Below are positions 629-55,064 of a stretch of DNA of 64,000 bases, piece by piece. Source of the DNA: Candidatus Wolfebacteria bacterium RIFOXYB1_FULL_54_12 (GTDB lineage Bacteria > Patescibacteriota > Minisyncoccia > UBA6257 > UBA9933); assembly GCA_001793895.1 (NCBI GenBank), contig MGIT01000001.1, positions 106,508 through 170,507 on the forward strand, in the 5' to 3' direction. The position numbers and the translations under genes were made by a program. A model generated the notes under the pieces. The model had not been told where the DNA came from and did no database searches. It saw nothing but the letters and a program-made list of their open reading frames with translations. Within the stretch, counting starts at the first letter, position 1; the number at the start of each line of letters is the position of its first letter.

Positions 629-812
629 GCTCCTAACTCAAATCCCTTATAGAATACCCGTTAAACGTACCTTTGTCATCTTTCTTGCAATGTATCGACG
701 TTCAACGTCGATACAATCAATATTTGCGTCTTGCAATAACGCAAATATTGCCATTATTTAGCCATTACTTGCTTAAATTCAATTGAGCGACATCGAATGT
801 CGCTCATATTCA

Positions 813-1958
813 TCATAAATTCAAATCCCCATTCGCCTCAATTTTATACTTCTTGCCACGCAAATAGTCGATATATCCCGAAACGGCAATCATCAACGCA
901 TTATCGGTAGAAAATTCGCTCACGATCAACAGTGGTCGATCTTTCTTTAGCGTGAACTTCTTTTCGATTGCTTCCGTAAACAAAGCACGCAAGGTGCGGT
1001 TGGCCGAAACTCCGCCCGAGATCATAATGGACTTCGCACCGAATTCTTCTACCGCGCGGAGCGTCTTTTTGATCAGTACATCCGCCGCCGCCTTTTGAAA
1101 ACTCGCGGCAATATCCGCTTTCGGAATACTTTTCCCCGCTTTCGTCAGATCGCGGATATAATACAGCACAGAGGTCTTCAGGCCGGAAAAACTGAAATTA
1201 TAATTTTTATGCCCGATCATCGGACGCGGGAAATCGATCGCCATCGGGTTGCCATCTTTCGCCAAGCGTTCGATTTCAGGCCCGCCCGGATACGGGAGGC
1301 CAATCAAACGCGCAACCTTGTCGAACGCCTCCCCCACCGCATCGTCAACCGTCTCGCCCAATTTTTTAAAATGGGTCAGGTCGTCCATTCTCAACAAAAT
1401 GGTATGACCCCCGCTGATGATCAACGCGATCGCGGGGAATATCCCCGCATTGTCATTCCCGCGGAGGCGGGAATCCACATCCTTACTTACCAAAAAACTA
1501 TATAAGTGCCCCTCCAAATGATTAGTGGGCACCAGCGGCTTGCCATATTTGGCCGCAAGCTCCTTTGCAAATTCAATGCCGGTCCACAATGCAGGTTCCA
1601 AACCAGGCCCAACGGTCACGGTAATGAAATCTACCCGATTCATAAAATCAGCCTCCCCCGCATTGTCATTCCCGCCCTTCTCTTTGTCATTCCCGCGGAG
1701 GCGGGAATCCACCACTATTTTATCAACAATCTCTTTAAATAATAGTGGCAAATTCTCCAAATGCGCGCGCTTTGCCAATCCCGGCACTACGCCGCCATAC
1801 GGCTGGTGCAGCTTGATCTGCGACGCGACCACATCGCCATGTACCTCAAACTTCGGCTTTTCCAAACCCCCGCTCGCCGTAACAAAAGAAAGGGCTGTTT
1901 CATCACAGCTCGTTTCAATCGACAAGATATACACCTTTTGTTTCTTCTCTAAAGACAT
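813..1958 (-). CDS. tsaD: tRNA N6-adenosine threonylcarbamoyltransferase TsaD (Kae1/Gcp family). It carries two in-frame repeat-element insertions.
   Basis: The 381 aa ORF reads MSLEKKQKVYILSIETSCDETALS...HLEGHLYS...GGVSANRTLR. It is longer than a typical TsaD of about 340 aa. The extra segments VDSRLRGNDNAG and VDSRLRGNDKEKGGNDNAG are exact translations of the palindromic repeat. Confidence 0.9.
   Translation of the reverse strand: MSLEKKQKVYILSIETSCDETALSFVTASGGLEKPKFEVHGDVVASQIKLHQPYGGVVPGLAKRAHLENLPLLFKEIVDKIVVDSRLRGNDKEKGGNDNAGEADFMNRVDFITVTVGPGLEPALWTGIEFAKELAAKYGKPLVPTNHLEGHLYSFLVSKDVDSRLRGNDNAGIFPAIALIISGGHTILLRMDDLTHFKKLGETVDDAVGEAFDKVARLIGLPYPGGPEIERLAKDGNPMAIDFPRPMIGHKNYNFSFSGLKTSVLYYIRDLTKAGKSIPKADIAASFQKAAADVLIKKTLRAVEEFGAKSIMISGGVSANRTLRALFTEAIEKKFTLKKDRPLLIVSEFSTDNALMIAVSGYIDYLRGKKYKIEANGDLNL
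1451..1475. repeat. TGTCATTCC-family A-module inserted in frame in tsaD
   Basis: tgtcattcccgcggaggcgggaatc, which encodes DSRLRGND on the coding strand. Confidence 0.85.
1664..1709. repeat. TGTCATTCC-family A-module with a partial tandem duplication, inserted in frame in tsaD
   Basis: tgtcattcccgcccttctctttgtcattcccgcggaggcgggaatc. Confidence 0.85.
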
Positions 1959-15470: not shown

Positions 15471-15533
15471 TGTCATTCCCGCGGAGGCGGGAATCTATTT
15501 AATACTGGATTCCCGCCTCCGCAGGGATGATAC
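15471..15533. repeat. TGTCATTCC nested-palindrome element: composite of two A-modules with a 13 bp spacer; the right end is degenerate
   Basis: tgtcattcccgcggaggcgggaatc tatttaatactgg attcccgcctccgcagggatga. Confidence 0.8.
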
Positions 15534-15563
15534 CGTCTCTAATTAATACATTACTCAGCGCAT

Positions 15564-15654
15564 TGTCATTCCGGCCTAAGCCTGTCCGCCAACTGGAGGA
15601 AGCCGGAATCTTGTTGAAAGAACTCGAGATCCCGTGTCGAGGCACGGGATGACA
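15564..15654. repeat. TGTCATTCC nested-palindrome element: composite with an 18 bp spacer ending cgag
   Basis: tgtcattccggcctaagcctgtccgccaactggaggaagccggaatc ttgttgaaagaactcgag atcccgtgtcgaggcacgggatgaca. Confidence 0.8.
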
Positions 15655-15749: not shown

Positions 15750-16073
15750 TTAGGAAATTTTACCAATTTCTACTTCGGTATAATCCTGCCTATGCGTCTT
15801 GAACTTTCGATAGCGGTTCTTGTTGTGGTAGCGGAAGACGATCTTTTTGTCGTCCCGATCCTTGCTCAACACGGTCGCTTCGACTTTCGCATTGGCCACA
15901 TACGGAGCTCCGATGGTCGCATCGGCGCCATCTTTCTGCTCGTCGGCGACAAGCAAAACCTTATCAAAAACGAACTGCTCGCCAATGGCGGCCTCCAGTT
16001 TTTCTACTCTTAGCTTTTGTCCGGCGGAAACCTTGTACTGCTTTCCACCCGTTTCGATGACTGCAAATTTCAT
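15750..16073 (-). CDS. rplU: 50S ribosomal protein L21
   Basis: MKFAVIETGGKQYKVSAGQKLRVEKL. Confidence 0.9.
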   Translation of the reverse strand: MKFAVIETGGKQYKVSAGQKLRVEKLEAAIGEQFVFDKVLLVADEQKDGADATIGAPYVANAKVEATVLSKDRDDKKIVFRYHNKNRYRKFKTHRQDYTEVEIGKIS

Positions 16074-16117
16074 ATCACTTAAAGATACCTGAAGACCCTT
16101 AAAATGTCAACAGAATT

Positions 16118-16189
16118 GTCATTCCCGCGAAGGCGGGAATCCACTACGTTCATATAGATCCCTCCGCCAGTCGGCGGACGGGAATGACA
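16118..16189. repeat. TGTCATTCC nested-palindrome element (composite)
   Basis: tgtcattcccgcgaaggcgggaatc cactacgttcatatagatc cctccgccagtcggcggacgggaatgaca. Confidence 0.8.
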
Positions 16190-16899: not shown

Positions 16900-17235
16900 T
16901 TAGAAATATAAATAATACACCACCGATCCGATGGCCAATAATGCAATGCATACCAAAACAGATAGGGCAATGATCACGCGTTCCTTTTTTGCATCTTCAG
17001 GCTTCAATTGCGCCTCTTGGGCAATGTCATTGAACACCTCATCGGCCTTTTTAAGAACATCCTCGCCGGAAACCTGGGCAGGTTTCGCATCGCCCGTCGC
17101 AAGCACCGCCTGCATGATAGCATCCACATCGGCCGGCTCGACGCCCCGATACACGAGCAGTTCACGAACCTGGTCCTGTCCGATGCCCCCCTTCAGCTGG
17201 TCTTTTGCGATTGTGATGAGTTTTTGTTTATCCAT
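16900..17235 (-). CDS. hypothetical protein with a C-terminal TM anchor; it shares an N-terminal domain of about 45 aa with the next gene
   Basis: MDKQKLITIAKDQLKGGIGQDQVRELLVYRG aligns with MIQQALIEVVKNQLGGGVSEAEVREFLRRRG from 17374..19170. Confidence 0.5.
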   Translation of the reverse strand: MDKQKLITIAKDQLKGGIGQDQVRELLVYRGVEPADVDAIMQAVLATGDAKPAQVSGEDVLKKADEVFNDIAQEAQLKPEDAKKERVIIALSVLVCIALLAIGSVVYYLYF

Positions 17236-17286
17236 GGCTAAAATCTATTTTTCTATCGTTTTATTATTATGCAAACTTCGCTTATT

Positions 17287-17356
17287 TGTCATTCCGGCCT
17301 CCGAGCCGGAATCTTACCGTTTAACCGCGAGATCCTGAATCAAGTTCAGGATGACA
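17287..17356. repeat. TGTCATTCC nested-palindrome element (composite, 18 bp spacer)
   Basis: tgtcattccggcctccgagccggaatc ttaccgtttaaccgcgag atcctgaatcaagttcaggatgaca. Confidence 0.85.
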
Positions 17357-19170: not shown

Positions 19171-19223
19171 GCCTGCTCAAAAAATAACTATACACTAAGT
19201 ATATCCGACAACGCCCAACAAAA

Positions 19224-19264
19224 CAAAAACCATGCATTAAAATGCATGGTTTTTGTTTTTGTGG
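19224..19264 (-). terminator. rho-independent terminator, copy 1 of a duplicated hairpin
   Basis: aaaaaccatgcatt-aaa-atgcatggttttt gtttttgtgg. Confidence 0.6.
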
Positions 19265-19408
19265 TGTTTGTTTGAAAAAGTCAGAACCCATTTTGAGAAA
19301 GATCCCTAACCGCTCCGCTCGGGGTGCGGCGGAAAAAGAAAAAAAAAATTAGGGAGGCGGGAAGAATCCCGCGCCGTCCGAGTTAAAAAATTGGCACTGG
19401 GCGAATTT

Positions 19409-21829: not shown

Positions 21830-21887
21830 ATGATTAGTCTATCCGCCATTGTATTTTTTAAGCGAGGACTATTTTCAAAATATTTCA

Positions 21888-21934
21888 CAAAAACAAAGAC
21901 CACGCATTTTAATGCATGGTTTTTGTTTTTGTGG
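21888..21934 (-). terminator. rho-independent terminator, copy 2 of the duplicated hairpin; it abuts the tRNA-Ala 3' end
   Basis: aaaaacaaagaccacgcatt-ttaa-tgcatggtttttgtttttgtgg. Confidence 0.55.
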
Positions 21935-22002
21935 ACCTAGGCGGAATCGGACCGCCGTCTCAGCAATGCGAATGCCGTGTTCTACCACTAGACTATAGGC
22001 CC
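21932..22002 (-). tRNA. tRNA-Ala (CGC)
   Basis: Reverse complement reads GGGCCTATAGTCTAGTGGTAGAACACGGCATTCGCATTGCTGAGACGGCGGTCCGATTCCGCCTAGGTCCA. G3:U70 is present. The anticodon loop is ttCGCat. Confidence 0.8.
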
Positions 22003-29026: not shown

Positions 29027-29088
29027 TGTCATTCCCGCGGAGGCGGGAATCTATTTAATACTGGATTCCCGCCTCCGCGGGAATGACA
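29027..29088. repeat. TGTCATTCC nested-palindrome element: canonical perfect composite
   Basis: tgtcattcccgcggaggcgggaatc tatttaatactgg attcccgcctccgcgggaatgaca. The terminal inverted repeats are perfect. Confidence 0.9.
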
Positions 29089-45326: not shown

Positions 45327-45412
45327 TGTCATTCCGAGCCTGCTGTCATCCTGAACTCGTTTCAGGATCTCGCGTACAAACAGTGAGCTTCTGAAATAAA
45401 TTCAGAATGACA
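45327..45412. repeat. TGTCATTCC nested-palindrome element: composite with an extra truncated left end
   Basis: tgtcattccgagcc tgctgtcatcctgaactcgtttcaggatc tcgcgtacaaacagtgag cttctgaaataaattcagaatgaca. Confidence 0.8.
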
Positions 45413-45471: not shown

Positions 45472-45496
45472 TGTCATTCCCGCGAAAGCGGGAATC
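45472..45496. repeat. TGTCATTCC-family solo A-module
   Basis: tgtcattcccgcgaaagcgggaatc. Confidence 0.8.
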
Positions 45497-45513
45497 TAGT
45501 ACACTAAAAAAGG

Positions 45514-46236: not shown

Positions 46237-46244
46237 TGCGGATA

Positions 46245-46291
46245 AAAAACGCTTAATAATATTGCTATAGCAATATTATTAAGCGTTTTTT
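46245..46291 (+). terminator. rho-independent terminator (perfect palindrome) after scpA
   Basis: aaaaaacgcttaataatattgctatagcaatattattaagcgtttttt. Confidence 0.7.
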
Positions 46292-46339
46292 ATTTCAGAA
46301 TTTCTCTGACTCTTGTCGCAGTCATCCATGTCACCGCCC

Positions 46340-47038: not shown

Positions 47039-47770
47039 TTATACCCTTTGATGATAGAATGTATCCACGATTAGGCGGTTATCGGGTTTCATTTCTCCGA
47101 TGACCGTCTTGTAAATGACCTCCGCGACATCTGCGGGCGTATGGTGCGCCTCTGTGCCTTTGAACAGTTCTTTGAACATGTTCGTCCCTACTGACCCGGG
47201 GGTAATGGTGATCACATCGATCCCCGACTGCACCAGCTCGGCCGACAACGCCTGCGTAAACGCGATCACGCCGGCCTTGGTCGCCGAATAGACGGCAAGC
47301 TCGGGAATGCCACAGAGTCCCGCTCCCGATGAAATATTAATGATGCATTTTCGTTTCACGGTACAACCGTCATGATCGGTTTCCGCAACGCCGGTATCCA
47401 TGCTCTTCAAAGCCTCCTGCGTAACAATAAACATGCCGCCCAGGTTCACATTGACCATGCTTTGCCACTCGGCTTCCGTCGTATCCGCAAATCGCTTGCG
47501 CTGGGCAACGCCCGCATTGTTGATAAGCACATCGATGCCGCCAAAACGCTTCTTCGCTTCCGCAATGGCAAGGGCGACCTGCGCCCGATCGCACACATCC
47601 CCTTCTATGACCAATGTGCGATCAATAGGAAGCGTCATCGCTTCCGAGCTTGTCGCACCATGGGAATAAATGACAACATTCGCACCTTCGGCAATGAACT
47701 TTTTCGCGGTTTCCAATCCGATGCCCGTCGCCCCACCGGTAATGAATACTGTCTTTCCTTTGATATCCAT
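47039..47770 (-). CDS. short-chain dehydrogenase/reductase (SDR) family oxidoreductase
   Basis: MDIKGKTVFITGGATGIGLETAKKF (TGxxxGxG), NNAG, and a YxxxK-like motif. The listed start at 47842 lies inside the repeat TIR. Confidence 0.8.
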   Translation of the reverse strand: MDIKGKTVFITGGATGIGLETAKKFIAEGANVVIYSHGATSSEAMTLPIDRTLVIEGDVCDRAQVALAIAEAKKRFGGIDVLINNAGVAQRKRFADTTEAEWQSMVNVNLGGMFIVTQEALKSMDTGVAETDHDGCTVKRKCIINISSGAGLCGIPELAVYSATKAGVIAFTQALSAELVQSGIDVITITPGSVGTNMFKELFKGTEAHHTPADVAEVIYKTVIGEMKPDNRLIVDTFYHQRV

Positions 47771-47796
47771 AATGGTATTAGTATAGCATAACTTTT

Positions 47797-47824
47797 TGTC
47801 ATTCCGGCGGAGGCCGGAATGACA
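47797..47824. repeat. TGTCATTCC-family minimal single-module element
   Basis: tgtcattccggcggaggccggaatgaca. Confidence 0.85.
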
Positions 47825-47836
47825 ACATAAGAAGTT

Positions 47837-47904
47837 TGTCATCCTGAACTCGTTTCAGGATCTCATGGTAGTGCGATGAGATTCCGGCCTCCGCCGGAAT
47901 GACA
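47837..47904. repeat. TGTCATTCC nested-palindrome element (composite, 18 bp spacer)
   Basis: tgtcatcctgaactcgtttcaggatc tcatggtagtgcgatgag attccggcctccgccggaatgaca. Confidence 0.85.
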
Positions 47905-48046: not shown

Positions 48047-48051
48047 CTGAA

Positions 48052-48088
48052 GTCAAATAAAAAACGCCTATGGCGTTTTTTATTTGAC
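48052..48088 (-). terminator. rho-independent terminator (37 bp perfect palindrome) overlapping the rplK stop codon
   Basis: gtcaaataaaaaacgcc-tat-ggcgttttttatttgac. Confidence 0.65.
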
Positions 48089-48502
48089 TTCGATTCCCAT
48101 CGATCGGGCTGCGCCCTTGATGATCTTTGCGGCCTGCTCGACGTCTTCAGTGTTAAGATCCACCATTTTCTTTTCGGCGATCTCACGCACCTGCGCCTCG
48201 GTAACGGTTCCCACCTTGATCTTCAGCGGATTCGCCGATCCCTTGGCGACGCCTGCCGCTTTGCGCAACAGATCGGATGCCGGGGAGGTCTTCAGCTTGA
48301 AGTCGAAGGTTCGATCTTCATAGATGTTGATCTCTGCGGGAATGATGCTTCCGACCATATCTTTGGTCGCTTCGTTGAACTGCTGGCAGAACTGCGCGAT
48401 ATTCACGCCGTGCTGACCCAATGCCGGACCAATCGGAGGAGCAGGGTTTGCCGCGCCACCCGGGATCTGAAGCTTAATGATAGTTTTGATTGCTTTTGCC
48501 AT
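48080..48502 (-). CDS. rplK: 50S ribosomal protein L11
   Basis: [35 protein letters not shown]. Confidence 0.9.
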
Positions 48503-52497: not shown

Positions 52498-52880
52498 AAA
52501 AACGATACAGGCATTATAAAGAACAACCGGACAAAAGTGAAGTCATGGAAATAAAAAAACGACCTCTATGGTCGACGCGAATAAAGAAAACAAACCCGGT
52601 TGATGGCGATCGAACGAACCCAGTATTCCACGCAAGAAGAATGTAAGAATTCCCATATGAAATTGTCTGCCCATGCGCACAATAAAATACTGTATTTAGT
52701 ATAGGGCAACCAAATAAGATATACAACACCCGCACACCTTTTCTGTAACCCCGGCGGAGCTCGCCACGTGGAAAGTAGAAACTTTCTTTACGTGGGCCGG
52801 AGGAGTCCAGCGTTTTCCGCGATAGCGGTAGCTGGACATTCAGACCCTAACAATGCCGGGAATGACGATGCGAGATTGGG

Positions 52881-52987
52881 TGTCATCCCCGTCCGTCCGC
52901 CAGCCGGCGGACGGAGGGATCCATGGTTTTTGCAGTAGTAGGGCTGGGATACCCAGACTCTGGATTCCCGTTTTCACGGGAATGACA
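52881..52987. repeat. TGTCATTCC nested-palindrome element (composite, long spacer)
   Basis: tgtcatccccgtccgtccgccagccggcggacggagggatc ... gactctgg attcccgttttcacgggaatgaca. Confidence 0.75.
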
Positions 52988-53054
52988 ATACCGAGGTGAC
53001 AAAGCAAGAAAATACTCATACAAAAAGGTTGTGACCCCGGCGGAGCTCGCCACG

Positions 53055-53084
53055 TGGTCCGCCAATGGCGGATCGGAATGACAC
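53055..53084. repeat. TGTCATTCC-family right-end fragment
   Basis: tccgccaatggcggatcggaatgaca. Confidence 0.5.
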
Positions 53085-53151
53085 CATCCACGCATTGTCA
53101 TGTCGACGCCTACCCGCCTTGGTCGGGAAGGCCGGTATCCGGTGTCTTGCA

Positions 53152-53289
53152 TTGTCATTCCGAGAGTAGCGGAGCGGAGCCAAGGAATCTGTTTTTAGTA
53201 CGGATCCCTGCTCCACCTCCGCCAGCTGGCGGATATGGCGGCACGCGGTCGATTTAATTCCGCTTCGCTATATTGCACTCGGGATGACA
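53152..53289. repeat. TGTCATTCC-family element, degenerate long composite
   Basis: tgtcattccgagagtagcggagcggagccaaggaatc ... ctccgccagctggcggatatggcgg ... cgggatgaca. Confidence 0.55.
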
Positions 53290-53476: not shown

Positions 53477-53938
53477 ATGTCCATAACAAAAACACAAAAA
53501 CAAATATTGGATATCTTTGAAAAAAATGGCGGGGCACTTCCTTCGTTTCGCGAAATAGCCCGTCAGATTGGAGTGTCGTCGACAAACACTGTCTCCTATC
53601 ATATAGAGCGCCTGCGAAAGAATGGCTACCTCGATATCGGACACTCCCCCCAAGGGATGGCAAACCTGTCACTTAAAACGATTCTTGCCTTGGATGCGAA
53701 GCCGGGAGTCTACGTGGTTCTCTGCGCGAACAAACCATTTTATATTGGGTCGTCCACGAACATCCGAAAGGACATTCTTGAAACGGTCATTGGCATAGAC
53801 CGGTCCCCGTTTCCACAGATCGTCGGCAAGCCGGAAGAACTGTCCATTGCCTACCACATCATCGAAAGCGAACCCGAACGGGCCGACCTCAAACAATACC
53901 TGCTCGAATTTTACCAAGCCAAGGGCATCGACATATGA
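53477..53938 (+). CDS. LexA-like winged-HTH DNA-binding domain fused to a GIY-YIG nuclease domain
   Basis: The N-terminus LTKTQKQILDIFEKNGGALPSFREIARQIGVSSTNTVSYHIERLRKNGYL resembles the LexA N-domain. The C-terminus carries GVYVVLCANKPFYIGSSTNIRKDI (GIY-YIG). Confidence 0.55.
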   Translation: MSITKTQKQILDIFEKNGGALPSFREIARQIGVSSTNTVSYHIERLRKNGYLDIGHSPQGMANLSLKTILALDAKPGVYVVLCANKPFYIGSSTNIRKDILETVIGIDRSPFPQIVGKPEELSIAYHIIESEPERADLKQYLLEFYQAKGIDI

Positions 53939-53980
53939 ACAATAAAACGGTCCGCCAACATGGCGGACCGTTTTATTGTT
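53939..53980 (+). terminator. rho-independent terminator (bidirectional palindrome)
   Basis: aacaataaaacggtccgcc-aacat-ggcggaccgttttattgtt, followed by ttttatt. Confidence 0.7.
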
Positions 53981-53984
53981 TTTA

Positions 53985-55064
53985 TTAATACAGGAACTTG
54001 CTCAAGAAATACAGAATCAGACCAAGCCCGGAGAAAATCGATGACAACAACCAGAAGCGCATCGTGATCTGGCTCTCGCTCCACCCCAACGCTTCGAAGT
54101 GATGGTGGATCGGAGCGGCGAGAAACACTTTTTTCCCGTGACGCAACTTTTTTGAGGTCAGCTGTATGATGACCGACAACGATTCGATAACGAGCACAAT
54201 GCCGATGATCGGAAGCAGTACGACCGAGTTGGTCAGGAACGCGATCACGGCAAGCACCGCCGTAAGCCCAAGGATGCCCGTCTCGCCCATATAAAACTTT
54301 GCGGGCGGTACATTGTACCACAGGTAGGTCAACATCGCCCCGACAATGATCACGATCAAGGTAACCAGGTCATACAATCCGCGCGAATATGCAATGACGC
54401 CAAAGGATATGAAGATGGGGGTCAACACGCCCGCCGACAATCCATCAAGTCCATCCACGACGCCGCTCGAAAACGTGGCGAGCATCGTCAACACGAACAG
54501 CACCATGTACAATCCGTCGATCTCGATATTGCCATGAAACGGAATGTAAATGCTGCTCCAGCCGAGCTTGAAATGAAACCACCACGCGCCCACGAATGCG
54601 ATCAGACAAACGATGGCCAATCGCCACTTAAAACGAAGGCCTCCGCTGATATAGTTTCCGCTGTTGCGTACCGTCATAATATCGTCGACCAACCCAAGTA
54701 GCGAGGCGGCGATCAACGTGAACAACGGAAGCCATGTCTGCGAACGGCTTAGAAAATTGACTTGTTCGGAAAGCGGGTATGGAAGCACCTGCACCAAAAT
54801 AAGATCGAGTATGGCGATCGCCAATACGGTTCCCCATATCAAAATGCCACCCATGCGCGGCGTGGTAACTTCTTTCTTTGCATGAAACTTCTGAAATATC
54901 GGCGTGGCATAACCGCCGATGGATAATTCCTTTGGCTTCTTTTTCCACGCCTTGTATTTATAAAGAAAATGGATCAGTACCGGGGCAAACAAAATGGCGA
55001 CAAGAAATGATGCCATAAAAAAACTGAGGAACTTTACGATAAGGAATGCGTGTGTCAGATACAT
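53985..55064 (-). CDS. mraY: phospho-N-acetylmuramoyl-pentapeptide transferase
   Basis: LVDDI, VVDGLDGLSAG, and PIHHHFEALGW. Confidence 0.85.
   Translation of the reverse strand: MYLTHAFLIVKFLSFFMASFLVAILFAPVLIHFLYKYKAWKKKPKELSIGGYATPIFQKFHAKKEVTTPRMGGILIWGTVLAIAILDLILVQVLPYPLSEQVNFLSRSQTWLPLFTLIAASLLGLVDDIMTVRNSGNYISGGLRFKWRLAIVCLIAFVGAWWFHFKLGWSSIYIPFHGNIEIDGLYMVLFVLTMLATFSSGVVDGLDGLSAGVLTPIFISFGVIAYSRGLYDLVTLIVIIVGAMLTYLWYNVPPAKFYMGETGILGLTAVLAVIAFLTNSVVLLPIIGIVLVIESLSVIIQLTSKKLRHGKKVFLAAPIHHHFEALGWSESQITMRFWLLSSIFSGLGLILYFLSKFLY

What the first reader, a model, noticed from the sequence alone, without database searches (positions are those of the whole stretch)
1451..1709. Two in-frame insertions of the palindromic element inside the essential gene tsaD
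The 381 aa tsaD ORF stays open across two copies of the A-module, at 1451..1475 and 1664..1709.
- On the coding strand the copies translate to ...SKDVDSRLRGNDNAGIFPAI... and ...VVDSRLRGNDKEKGGNDNAGEADFM....
- These are extra loops compared with a typical TsaD of about 340 aa.
- The second copy carries a partial internal tandem duplication (tgtcattcccgcc cttctctt tgtcattcccgcggaggcgggaatc).

Tolerated in-frame insertion of a mobile palindrome into an essential gene is the signature described for RPE elements in Rickettsia. It implies selection for length divisible by 3 and surface-loop placement.
Basis: seen in the sequence. Interest (0 to 1): 0.8.

Follow-up and report, generated by a model that had tools for sequence, protein, structure and literature searches.

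The report
Hairpin repeats inserted in-frame in tsaD
An essential tRNA-modification gene (tsaD) of an uncultured groundwater bacterium (Candidatus Wolfebacteria) carries two in-frame copies of a short hairpin DNA repeat that matches the Neisseria "NTS" repeat cut by Ssn nucleases, and the same two protein loops have been hit repeatedly in related bacteria.

Summary
tsaD (813..1958, minus strand, 381 aa) is intact, under purifying selection, and assembled identically in 8 independent datasets. It holds two copies of a repeat that occurs about 25 times in the window, otherwise only between genes.

- **True unit:** 36 nt, CCCCGCAT-TGTCATTCCCGCGGAGGCGGGAATC-CAC, at 1443..1478 (12 aa). At 1656..1712 the same unit carries an extra 21-nt half-module (19 aa). 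Both copies have the same orientation and reading frame (VDSRLRGND...NAG).
- **Lineage-specific:** orthologs 78-84% identical (353 aa) lack both segments.
- **Placement:** the AlphaFold2 model dips in confidence only at the two inserts.

New points:
1. The repeat is not Rickettsia RPE-like in sequence or size. It matches the Neisseria NTS/dRS3 "Ssn-related motif" hairpin at 25/28 positions (27/28 in one ortholog's tsaD copy). Ssn-like GIY-YIG genes flanked by this repeat occur in Patescibacteria-type contigs and a Wolfebacteria contig.
2. The two TsaD sites are hot spots. Close relatives carry different repeats at the same sites, and the hairpin is kept through compensatory changes.
3. The same 25-mer sits in-frame inside Fmt, PyrF and a radical-SAM enzyme elsewhere.

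It is an RPE-like phenomenon with a different, recently described element class. How the repeat moves is inferred, not shown.

The parts
813..1958 (-). tsaD coding sequence, 381 aa. Intact; the metal-binding residues H147, H151 and D352 are conserved.
   Evidence: TIGR03723 341 bits against a 296-bit cutoff. Foldseek target-normalised TM-score 0.82-0.88 to the top bacterial TsaD structures. Invariant columns in the 92-sequence alignment. dN/dS 0.09 against L001.
1443..1478 (+). Site-2 repeat unit, 36 nt. The NTS-forward strand is the + strand, which is antisense to tsaD. It encodes aa 161-172, VDSRLRGNDNAG.
   Evidence: Exact 36-mer shared with site 1. Matches the Neisseria NTS consensus at 25/28 positions. 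Absent from the 353-aa orthologs.
1455..1474 (+). Site-2 hairpin: stem 1455-1462 / 1467-1474 (ATTCCCGC / GCGGGAAT), loop GGAG. This fits the dRS3 pattern ATTCCC-N8-GGGAAT. GTC lies upstream and C downstream.
   Evidence: ssDNA fold -8.9 kcal/mol, z-score -2.5. dRS3 and NTS definitions from PMC11893778.
1656..1712 (+). Site-1 repeat-derived segment, 57 nt. It encodes aa 83-101, VDSRLRGNDKEKGGNDNAG.
   Evidence: Homologous insertions are present in L001, L006 and L008 and absent in L002, L007, L009 and L011-L013.
1664..1684 (+). Extra 21 nt within site 1: a left half-module TGTCATTCCCGC (1664-1675) plus a 9-nt spacer CCTTCTCTT (1676-1684).
   Evidence: Read directly from the sequence. The same half-module-then-full-module arrangement is seen at 45328-45368 and in the L009 and L010 tsaD inserts.
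1685..1712 (+). Site-1 full module with its hairpin (stem 1689-1696 / 1701-1708).
1642..1655 (+). 14 nt next to the site-1 repeat (coding strand GAGGCTGATTTTAT, encoding 'EADFM'). Insert-free orthologs lack it; L001, L006 and L008 share it.
   Evidence: Site-by-site DNA comparison. L006 shows a clean 42-nt difference between ATGGATCC and GGAGCAG relative to insert-free orthologs.
52866..53288 (.). Largest cluster of the same module family in the window, upstream of the HTH gene 53477-53938. The syntenic spot in a related Wolfebacteria contig (L140) holds an Ssn-like GIY-YIG gene flanked by inverted modules.

Best explanation
**What it is.** The two segments are copies of a short hairpin repeat of the NTS / Ssn-related-motif (SRM) class.
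- Its anatomy is a conserved TGTC lead, an 8-bp stem, a 4-nt loop and a trailing C, often preceded by CCCCGCAT.
- In Patescibacteria-type DNA this class occurs as solo arms and as two-arm elements with inverted arms. It also occurs as inverted arms flanking a 94-aa GIY-YIG (Ssn-like) nuclease gene. That layout looks like an autonomous element with its non-autonomous derivatives.

**How it got there (partly inferred).**
1. Copies spread to many places in the genome.
2. Inside genes, nearly all are removed by selection.
3. In essential tsaD, only copies that met four conditions survived: a length that is a multiple of three, no stop codon, a hydrophilic reading frame (DSRLRGND), and a position in one of two permissive connections.
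4. Those connections are the end of the long helix before strand beta4, and the link after the HxxxH metal-binding helix.

**What it does.** The encoded peptides are passengers on the protein surface, and TsaD stays functional.

**Turnover.** The two sites behave as hot spots, because related lineages carry other variants or other repeats there. The hairpin stays intact and close to the genome's own consensus. That implies recent re-insertion, or gene conversion from other copies, rather than one ancient event that then drifted.

**Shown:** repeat identity, in-frame status, lineage specificity, gene integrity, hot-spot pattern, link to Ssn-like genes in related DNA.

**Inferred:** the mobilising enzyme, the direction of each insertion or deletion, and that the peptides have no function.

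**On the confidence value.** 0.8 refers to the core claim: in-frame, tolerated insertions of NTS/SRM-class hairpin repeats in a functional tsaD. For Ssn-driven mobilisation or gene conversion specifically, I would put it at about 0.4.
For: **Repeat family and exclusion from genes**
- 11 copies of the 25-mer against 0 expected.
- 25 hairpin modules against 0.8 expected.
- Greedy ORFs cover 90% of the window, yet tsaD is the only real gene hit.

**Lineage specificity**
- The 353-aa orthologs at 78-84% identity lack both segments.
- The alignment to T. maritima TsaD leaves query residues 82-107 unmatched and shows an 11-aa gap at site 2.

**Gene integrity**
- TIGR03723 score above its cutoff.
- dN/dS 0.03-0.09.
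- AF2 pLDDT 92 and pTM 0.90, with dips only at residues 81-100 and 161-170.
- TsaD fold confirmed.
- 8 assemblies agree.

**Class assignment**
- The NTS is CGTCATTCCCGCGMAVGCGGGAATCYRG, and the SRM definition comes from PMC11893778.
- The tsaD copies match the NTS at 25/28 positions, copy 45472-45499 at 27/28, and the copy inside tsaD of L010 at 27/28.
- The strict SRM pattern gives 4 hits against 0.24 in shuffles.

**Link to Ssn-like genes**
- The exact 25-mer abuts a 94-aa GIY-YIG gene flanked by inverted modules in L039, and a 101-aa one in L131.
- Homologs of the L039 protein are named GIY-YIG nucleases in Patescibacteria, Parcubacteria and Liptonbacteria.
- The Wolfebacteria-type contig L140 has a 69%-identical copy flanked by modules.

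**Hot spots and turnover**
- Different inserts occupy the same two sites in P0002, P0003, P0004, P0005, P0007, P0008, P0013, P0018 and P0024.
- The sister lineage (99% bootstrap, dS 0.53) has unrelated content at site 2.
- The L010 insertion lies 5 aa away from the window's, so it is an independent event.
- The longest exact run between window and L007 anywhere in tsaD is the 29-nt site-2 module, although synonymous sites are saturated (pS 0.70).
- The hairpin is kept in 96.9% of pair cells, and 4 of 8 pairs show compensatory changes.

**Generality**
- The same 25-mer lies in frame inside the Pfam domains of Fmt (L069), a radical-SAM enzyme (L097) and OMP decarboxylase (L121).
Against: - No Ssn-like gene was found in the 64-kb window (tblastn). 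The rest of this genome could not be searched.
- The L140 Ssn-like gene has a stop at codon 3 and may be a pseudogene.
- No target-site duplication or clear target motif was seen, so transposition itself is not demonstrated.
- The dominant GGAG-loop variant fails the published strict SRM pattern at one degenerate position.
- The backbone of the ortholog tree is unresolved (bootstrap 5-25%). Single ancient insertions followed by losses or recombination cannot be separated from repeated insertions.
- The shared non-repeat flank 'E-x-[DE]-F-M' points to one origin for the site-1 insertion.
- Insert-free site 1 reads GG-ATGGATCC-GAG, which resembles the repeat's own end. That sequence could be a footprint or a microhomology target.
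- The compensatory changes may reflect different pre-formed variants arriving, not evolution in place.
Confidence: 0.8

Rival explanations
1. Ancient, functional loops. The segments were acquired once in an ancestor and are kept because the peptides contribute to TsaD function, for example contacts with TsaB, TsaE or tRNA. Their resemblance to the repeat is historical.
For: - Site 1 extends the helix that I assign, by inference, to the TsaD-TsaB bundle where tRNA is modelled to bind (PMC11648230; secondary structure).
- All tsaD copies use the same hydrophilic frame.
- The non-repeat flank E-x-[DE]-F-M is shared by all four site-1 bearers.
Against: - The closest orthologs work without the segments, as 353-aa proteins under the same constraint.
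- The sister lineage has unrelated sequence at site 2.
- The inserts match intergenic copies exactly at the DNA level, while synonymous sites elsewhere are saturated. That is conservation of DNA sequence, not of protein.
- The model is least confident at the inserts.
Confidence: 0.1
2. Recombination cassettes rather than insertions. The repeats act as recombination break or join points, as NTS/dRS3 repeats do in Neisseria. The differing loop contents would then arise from exchange of tsaD segments between Wolfebacteria lineages, not from new element insertions.
For: - Each site-2 insert type is shared by non-sister lineages. Module A is in the window and P0005, the GATACGA type in P0002/P0003 and P0018, and the AATTACG type in P0004 and P0007.
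- L006 and L011 share an identical 30-nt loop segment.
- In Neisseria, NTS repeats plus SsnA modulate how transforming DNA is integrated (PMC11893778).
Against: - The tree backbone is too weak to prove incongruence.
- No mosaic breakpoints were mapped.
- Natural transformation in these organisms is unknown.
- This would explain how loop variants spread, not where the repeat copy in the gene first came from.
Confidence: 0.2
3. Artefact or pseudogene. The repeats were mis-joined during metagenome assembly, or tsaD is decaying.
For: Short repeats are a classic cause of assembly errors, and the genome is a metagenome-assembled genome.
Against: - The CDS is identical in 8 assemblies made with different assemblers and from different samples.
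- The frame is open for 381 aa, and the catalytic H147, H151 and D352 are kept.
- dN/dS is 0.09.
- Homologous inserts are present in independent genomes.
Confidence: 0.02

Closest known systems
Neisseria NTS / dRS3 repeats and Ssn-related motifs (SRM), paired with SsnA GIY-YIG single-strand nucleases (PMC11893778, Nat Commun 2025)
   Same: - Near-identical sequence and anatomy: (C/T)GTC + ATTCCCGC + 4-nt loop + GCGGGAAT + C.
- 25-27 of 28 positions match the NTS consensus, and the dRS3 pattern ATTCCC-N8-GGGAAT is met exactly.
- The repeat has an orientation, is abundant, and forms clusters.
- Inverted copies flank 94-aa GIY-YIG genes in Patescibacteria-type DNA (L039) and Wolfebacteria-type DNA (L140).
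   Different: - The host is a candidate-phyla-radiation bacterium. The paper does not mention Patescibacteria or copies inside genes.
- Here the copies sit in frame inside an essential gene.
- The dominant GGAG loop misses the strict SRM pattern at one position.
- No ssn gene was found in this window.
- Cleavage by an Ssn enzyme is untested.
Rickettsia palindromic elements (RPE)
   Same: Palindromic repeats inserted in frame into unrelated housekeeping genes, tolerated without loss of the protein fold, adding extra peptide segments (review PMC10969869).
   Different: - RPEs are about 150 bp, fall into 10 families, and encode a conserved peptide of tens of residues.
- Here the unit is 36 nt (12 aa), reaching about 60-75 nt as two-arm elements.
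- No sequence relationship was tested or seen.
- In this window only 2 of about 23 module loci are in a gene, whereas nearly half of RPEs are.
REP / BIME elements with RAYT (IS200/IS605-like) transposases
   Same: Short GC-rich hairpins with a conserved lead sequence next to the stem. They occur singly or as inverted pairs, cluster between genes, and are associated with a small enzyme gene flanked by inverted copies.
   Different: - The associated enzyme class here is GIY-YIG, not a HUH Y1 transposase.
- REPs are by definition extragenic.
- No RAYT was looked for beyond the window.
MITEs generating in-frame fusions (ERIC, BOX, Correia/NEMIS, QMITE1)
   Same: Non-autonomous derivatives with inverted ends. 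Occasional in-frame insertions inside genes are reported (PMC10969869).
   Different: No target-site duplication was found here. Each 'terminal inverted repeat' is itself a hairpin, and solo arms are common.

Membership tests
NTS / Ssn-related motif (SRM) repeats | Sequence consensus CGTCATTCCCGCGMAVGCGGGAATCYRG, containing dRS3 ATTCCC-N8-GGGAAT | tested here: met
   The tsaD copies match at 25/28 positions. The window copy 45472-45499 and the L010 tsaD copy match at 27/28. The dRS3 pattern is met exactly.
NTS / Ssn-related motif (SRM) repeats | Match to the published degenerate SRM pattern HGTCWYN(0-2)YYVSBRHN(0-5)WNVSBRGN(0-2)RNCYNB, enriched over shuffles | tested here: inconclusive
   4 strict hits in the window against 0.24 in shuffles. 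The dominant GGAG-loop variant, including both tsaD copies, fails at one degenerate position, where H is required and G is present.
NTS / Ssn-related motif (SRM) repeats | Hairpin with the conserved GTC immediately 5' (needed for cleavage) and a C immediately 3' of the palindrome (needed for binding) | tested here: met
   Both tsaD copies have GTC-ATTCCCGC-GGAG-GCGGGAAT-C. 23 of 25 window modules have the 3' C. The requirements are from PMC11893778.
NTS / Ssn-related motif (SRM) repeats | Genomic association with a small single-domain GIY-YIG (Ssn, cd10448) gene, typically flanked by the repeats | tested here: inconclusive
   - Met in related DNA. L039 and L131 carry the exact 25-mer, and the Wolfebacteria-type contig L140 has the arrangement at the syntenic locus.
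- Not found in this 64-kb window.
- The rest of the genome was not searchable.
- Assignment to cd10448 could not be run; only Pfam PF01541 was available.
NTS / Ssn-related motif (SRM) repeats | Site-specific cleavage of the single-stranded forward strand by the cognate Ssn enzyme | not testable with these tools
   Needs a biochemical assay.
Rickettsia palindromic elements (RPE) | Element of about 100-150 bp belonging to one of the RPE families, encoding a conserved peptide | tested here: not met
   The unit is 36 nt (57 nt with the half-module). Sizes for comparison are from PMC10969869. Sequence similarity to RPE consensus sequences was not tested, because none were held.
Rickettsia palindromic elements (RPE) | In-frame insertion in housekeeping genes, compatible with the protein fold | tested here: met
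   tsaD. Fmt, OMP decarboxylase and a radical-SAM enzyme in other contigs.
MITE (transposase-mobilised) | Terminal inverted repeats plus a target-site duplication | tested here: not met
   Two-arm forms have inverted ends TGTCAT...ATGACA. No target-site duplication was seen at the tsaD sites or at 8 other intragenic copies.
TsaD (TIGR03723) functional enzyme | Full-length match above the curated cutoff, with the H-x3-H ... D metal site | tested here: met
   341 bits against a 296-bit cutoff. H147, H151 and D352 are invariant columns. The motif is named in PMC11648230.

The most novel reading that the evidence does not exclude
Ssn-type hairpin repeats are not just tolerated debris in candidate-phyla-radiation genes. 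They are actively kept as hairpins inside essential coding sequence, by gene conversion or by repeated targeted insertion. Particular protein loops, such as the two in TsaD, then act as landing pads where different repeats replace one another. This would be a repeat-driven mechanism of loop diversification, and possibly of recombination control, within housekeeping genes of tiny symbiotic bacteria. It might be mechanistically the same as what produces RPE insertions in Rickettsia, which is also SRM-rich according to PMC11893778.
Probability: 0.25. Interest if true: 0.75.

Novelty: new variant of a known kind. Interest (0 to 1): 0.55.

Why it matters
In-frame palindromic insertions in essential genes have been treated largely as a Rickettsia curiosity with no known mobilising enzyme. 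Here the same outcome appears in a distant, reduced-genome lineage. The element belongs to a class for which a cognate enzyme family, the Ssn single-strand nucleases, has just been characterised.

That makes the mechanism testable:
- Does an Ssn-like enzyme cut these hairpins?
- Does it drive insertion or gene conversion?
- Does hairpin content inside genes affect recombination or expression?

There is also a practical side. Proteins from candidate-phyla-radiation genomes may carry repeat-derived loops (DSRLRGND, SFPRRRES, VIPAEAGIQ). These distort alignments, ortholog lengths and structure predictions.

Tried and rejected
- **Rfam, whole window, gathering thresholds.** Only 6 tRNAs were found. 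No RNA family covers the repeat.
- **Candidate nuclease in the window.** ORF 53477-53938 has a LexA-like HTH plus a weak GIY-YIG N-terminal motif (Pfam E=0.005). It shows no similarity to the Ssn-like proteins (BLASTP E=8). Its 17 homologs carry only HTH annotations. It was rejected as an Ssn homolog.
- **tblastn with Ssn-like proteins against the window.** Nothing better than E=3.
- **Small ORF 15750-16073 flanked by modules.** It is ribosomal protein L21, not a nuclease.
- **Apparent intragenic modules elsewhere in the window.** Those in 47039-47842, 16931-17338 and 52883-53158 lie upstream of the true start or inside spurious ORFs.
- **Partial match at 103-110 in ftsW/rodA.** This is native coding sequence conserved in L001, not a module.
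- **Target-site duplication or insertion motif.** None was convincing. The ATGGA repeat at the L006 junction does not reproduce the insert-free allele when collapsed.
- **GATACGA-type and AATTACG-type site-2 inserts.** No other copies were found in about 100 kb of Wolfebacteria DNA held, so their status as repeats rests only on my recollection.
- **Literature searches.** Nothing was found for the repeat peptides or for in-frame palindromes in candidate-phyla-radiation or Patescibacteria genomes.
- **Genome-contig scan.** It gave only 5 tsaD loci. The first tree script timed out.
Full report
**1. Source and gene**

The 381-aa product of ORF 813..1958 (-) is 100% identical to a protein of Candidatus Wolfebacteria bacterium RIFOXYB1_FULL_54_12, a member of the candidate phyla radiation (Patescibacteria).
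- It matches the TsaD equivalog TIGR03723 at 341 bits, above the 296-bit cutoff.
- Its best solved relatives are bacterial TsaD chains such as 6n9a and 8iey (E about 1e-72) and 4ydu (about 1e-62).
- Gene order ppsA - PQ-loop gene - tsaD - ftsW/rodA - yceG is conserved in relatives.

**2. Checking the observation**

- The 25-mer TGTCATTCCCGCGGAGGCGGGAATC is exact at 1451-1475 and 1685-1709. It has 11 copies with up to 3 mismatches in the window against none in shuffles.
- A structure-based census (GTCA followed by a 7-12 bp hairpin) finds 25 modules against 0.8 in shuffles.
- Greedy ORFs cover 90% of the window, yet tsaD is the only genuine gene containing modules. The other apparent cases lie upstream of a true start codon or in spurious antisense ORFs. 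With about 23 module loci and only 2 in a real gene, random placement would give a binomial probability of about 2e-19 (my arithmetic). Copies inside genes are therefore strongly removed by selection.
- The unit shared by the two tsaD copies is 36 nt, CCCCGCAT + the 25-mer + CAC, at 1443-1478. This encodes 12 aa, VDSRLRGNDNAG, residues 161-172.
- The site-1 copy (1656-1712, 57 nt, residues 83-101) is the same unit interrupted by 21 extra bases. These are a left half-module TGTCATTCCCGC plus CCTTCTCTT.
- Both copies have the same orientation and frame. Five of the six frames of the unit have no stop codon (my translation of the unit), so an open frame alone is a weak filter. Length divisible by three and placement matter more.
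- The hairpin has an 8-bp stem and a 4-nt loop, with a folding energy of -8.9 kcal/mol as single-stranded DNA.

**3. Not an artefact, not a pseudogene**

- The same protein is on 13 contigs. In 8 independent assemblies the CDS is identical, or differs at 5 synonymous sites, with the inserts unchanged.
- dN/dS against the closest relative L001 is 0.09 at dS 0.53. Against more distant orthologs it is 0.03-0.06.
- H147, H151 and D352 are invariant in a 92-sequence alignment. These correspond to the H-x3-H...D metal-binding motif named in PMC11648230.

**4. Lineage specificity and structure**

- Orthologs at 78-84% identity and 353 aa (P0006, P0009, P0010, P0012, P0014 and others) lack both segments.
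- The difference of 28 aa is made up of +22 at site 1 and +6 at site 2.
- An AlphaFold2 model built on 92 sequences has pLDDT 92 and pTM 0.90. Confidence dips only at residues 81-100 (79 and 69) and 161-170 (63).
- The model superposes on the top bacterial TsaD structures with target-normalised TM-scores of 0.82-0.88.
- Site 1 lengthens the C-terminal end of the long helix 59-88 and adds a short helix at 98-108 before strand beta4. By my assignment, that long helix is one of the two TsaD helices of the TsaD-TsaB helical bundle, where the tRNA anticodon arm is modelled to bind (PMC11648230). So site 1 is a tolerant tip of a functional helix rather than an arbitrary loop.
- Site 2 lies about 10 residues after the HxxxH helix, in the link to the second domain.
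- I could not obtain model coordinates, so exposure is inferred from confidence and secondary structure.

**5. What the repeat is**

- The module matches the Neisseria Transformation Sequence CGTCATTCCCGCGMAVGCGGGAATCYRG, which contains dRS3 (ATTCCC-N8-GGGAAT).
- It also has the features that matter for the cognate enzyme SsnA: the GTC just 5' of the palindrome, needed for cleavage, and the C just 3' of it, needed for binding (PMC11893778).
- The tsaD copies match the NTS at 25/28 positions. Window copy 45472-45499, and the copy inside tsaD of the 60%-identical ortholog L010, match at 27/28.
- The published degenerate SRM pattern gives 4 strict hits in the window against 0.24 expected. The dominant GGAG-loop variant misses it at one position.
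- That paper reports SRMs with Ssn GIY-YIG nucleases across several phyla, enriched in symbionts including Rickettsia and Wolbachia. It does not mention Patescibacteria or intragenic copies.
- In two of these the 25-mer directly abuts a small single-domain GIY-YIG gene:
  - L039 is 94 aa, the same length as SsnA, with inverted modules on both sides and 43% GC.
  - L131 is 101 aa.
- Named homologs of the L039 protein are GIY-YIG nucleases from Patescibacteria, Parcubacteria, Moraniibacteria and Liptonbacteria.
- A contig carrying a protein identical to one of Wolfebacteria GW2011_GWC2_39_22 (L140) has a 69%-identical Ssn-like gene flanked by inverted modules. It sits at the position syntenic to the window's largest module cluster (52866-53288). 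It has a stop at codon 3 and may be decayed.
- The window itself has no detectable ssn gene.
- Two-arm elements (TGTCAT-hairpin-ATC, spacer, GAT-hairpin-ATGACA) occur at 15471-15532 and 29027-29088. They look like gene-less derivatives of the module-ssn-module unit. This reading is an inference.

**6. Hot spots and turnover**

- At site 1:
  - L001/P0002, P0003 and L008 carry a two-arm element (GVTPAEAGVQEG-DS.LRRNDN).
  - L006 carries a single arm, seen as a clean 42-nt difference between ATGGATCC and GGAGCAG.
  - L010 carries an independent insertion 5 residues upstream.
- At site 2:
  - L007 has the same module as the window.
  - L009 has a different module plus a half-module.
  - L001, P0003 and P0018 have a GATACGA-rich segment.
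  - L006 and L011 have an AATTACG-rich segment.
- The window groups with P0002/P0003 at 99% bootstrap, yet their site-2 contents are unrelated.
- Between window and L007, synonymous sites are saturated (pS 0.70). Even so, the longest exact run in the whole gene is the 29-nt site-2 module.
- Across 8 distinct tsaD-internal module variants, 96.9% of stem positions pair and 4 of 8 pairs show changes on both sides. None of 500 shuffles reaches this.
- The same pattern, position kept and content changed, holds in the tsaD-ftsW spacer between window and L001.
- Among 120 Parcubacteria-type TsaD homologs, the two connections vary from 22 to 56 aa and from 18 to 46 aa.
- Taken together, these are recurrent landing sites whose hairpins are young or homogenised.
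- The unresolved tree backbone and the shared non-repeat flank at site 1 mean I cannot separate repeated insertion from a single insertion followed by gene conversion or recombination.

**7. Generality**

- Of the 124 metagenomic copies of the exact 25-mer, the following lie in frame:
  - inside Pfam-verified domains of methionyl-tRNA formyltransferase (L069, a two-arm element, SFPRRRES frame);
  - inside an ELP3-like radical-SAM enzyme (L097, which also carries a second insert);
  - inside OMP decarboxylase (L121).
- In-frame copies also occur in two membrane proteins, a DNA methylase and a TatC tail.
- The frames seen inside genes were DSRLRGND (most cases), SFPRRRES and VIPAEAGIQ. The numbers are too small for a test.

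**8. Comparison with known systems and verdict**

- The outcome is what is described for Rickettsia RPEs: in-frame, fold-compatible insertions in housekeeping genes (PMC10969869).
- The element is several-fold shorter and belongs to the NTS/SRM class. It also resembles REP/BIME elements in organisation.
- I found no report of such insertions in candidate-phyla-radiation genomes in the searchable library.
- I rate it a new variant of a known kind.
- The mobilisation mechanism (Ssn-like nuclease, gene conversion, or recombination) remains inferred.

Noticed in passing
window 53477-53938 (+) and 52866-53288: A 153-aa LexA-like HTH protein with a weak GIY-YIG-like N-terminal motif (GVYVV...FYIGSS; Pfam E=0.005) sits next to the densest module cluster. 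Its family is tiny: 17 proteins, all Wolfebacteria-type. In L140 the syntenic upstream spacer holds an Ssn-like GIY-YIG gene flanked by modules.
   Followed up: partly
window 15471-15653 and 16117-16188, flanking 15750-16073: The ribosomal protein L21 gene (rplU) is bracketed on both sides by clusters of the hairpin modules. This is a module-gene-module arrangement like the one discussed for Neisseria NTS.
   Followed up: partly
window 19195-19284 and 21886-21933: A second, unrelated inverted-repeat family (…AAAAACAAA.ACCA.GCATT / AATGCATGGTTTTTGTTTTTGTG) occurs at two places. One lies beside a tRNA gene (21932-22002).
   Followed up: no
window 46242-46293; 48049-48091; 53933-53985: Perfect or near-perfect AT-rich palindromes at gene ends (26+26 nt, 20+20 nt, 25+25 nt). 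They look like bidirectional terminators and are distinct from the TGTCAT module family.
   Followed up: no
window 640-812: The spacer between tsaD and ftsW/rodA holds further palindromes (…gtatcgacgttcaacgtcgatac…, …caatatttgcgtcttgcaataacgcaaatattg…) in addition to modules at 560-583 and 603-627. L001 has about 500 extra bases here.
   Followed up: partly
TsaD homologs P0025-P0120: Across Parcubacteria-type TsaD the two connections carry low-complexity, repeat-like peptides (NSEFRIKNSE, KHEARNSKQK..FGFRNSDF, ISNFQFPISN, SKIKNQKSK). Other short repeat families may also land in these two loops.
   Followed up: partly
L097 6326-8038 (-): An ELP3-like radical-SAM protein carries two separate in-frame repeat-derived segments: CHSGLDPES...LDSRLRGNDK and CHSELDPES..FRFHGNDK.
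   Followed up: partly
window 1-64000: GC skew is negative along the whole window and most genes are on the minus strand. The NTS-like GGAG/GAAG variant is mostly in forward orientation on the plus strand (8 of 10 copies with up to 3 mismatches). Possible strand bias was not analysed.
   Followed up: no
L140 939-1230 (-): The Wolfebacteria-type Ssn-like gene reads ATG AAA TAA and then continues in frame as YYVYILASKRNGTLYIGVTNDL... It is either a recent pseudogene or a sequencing or recoding oddity.
   Followed up: no
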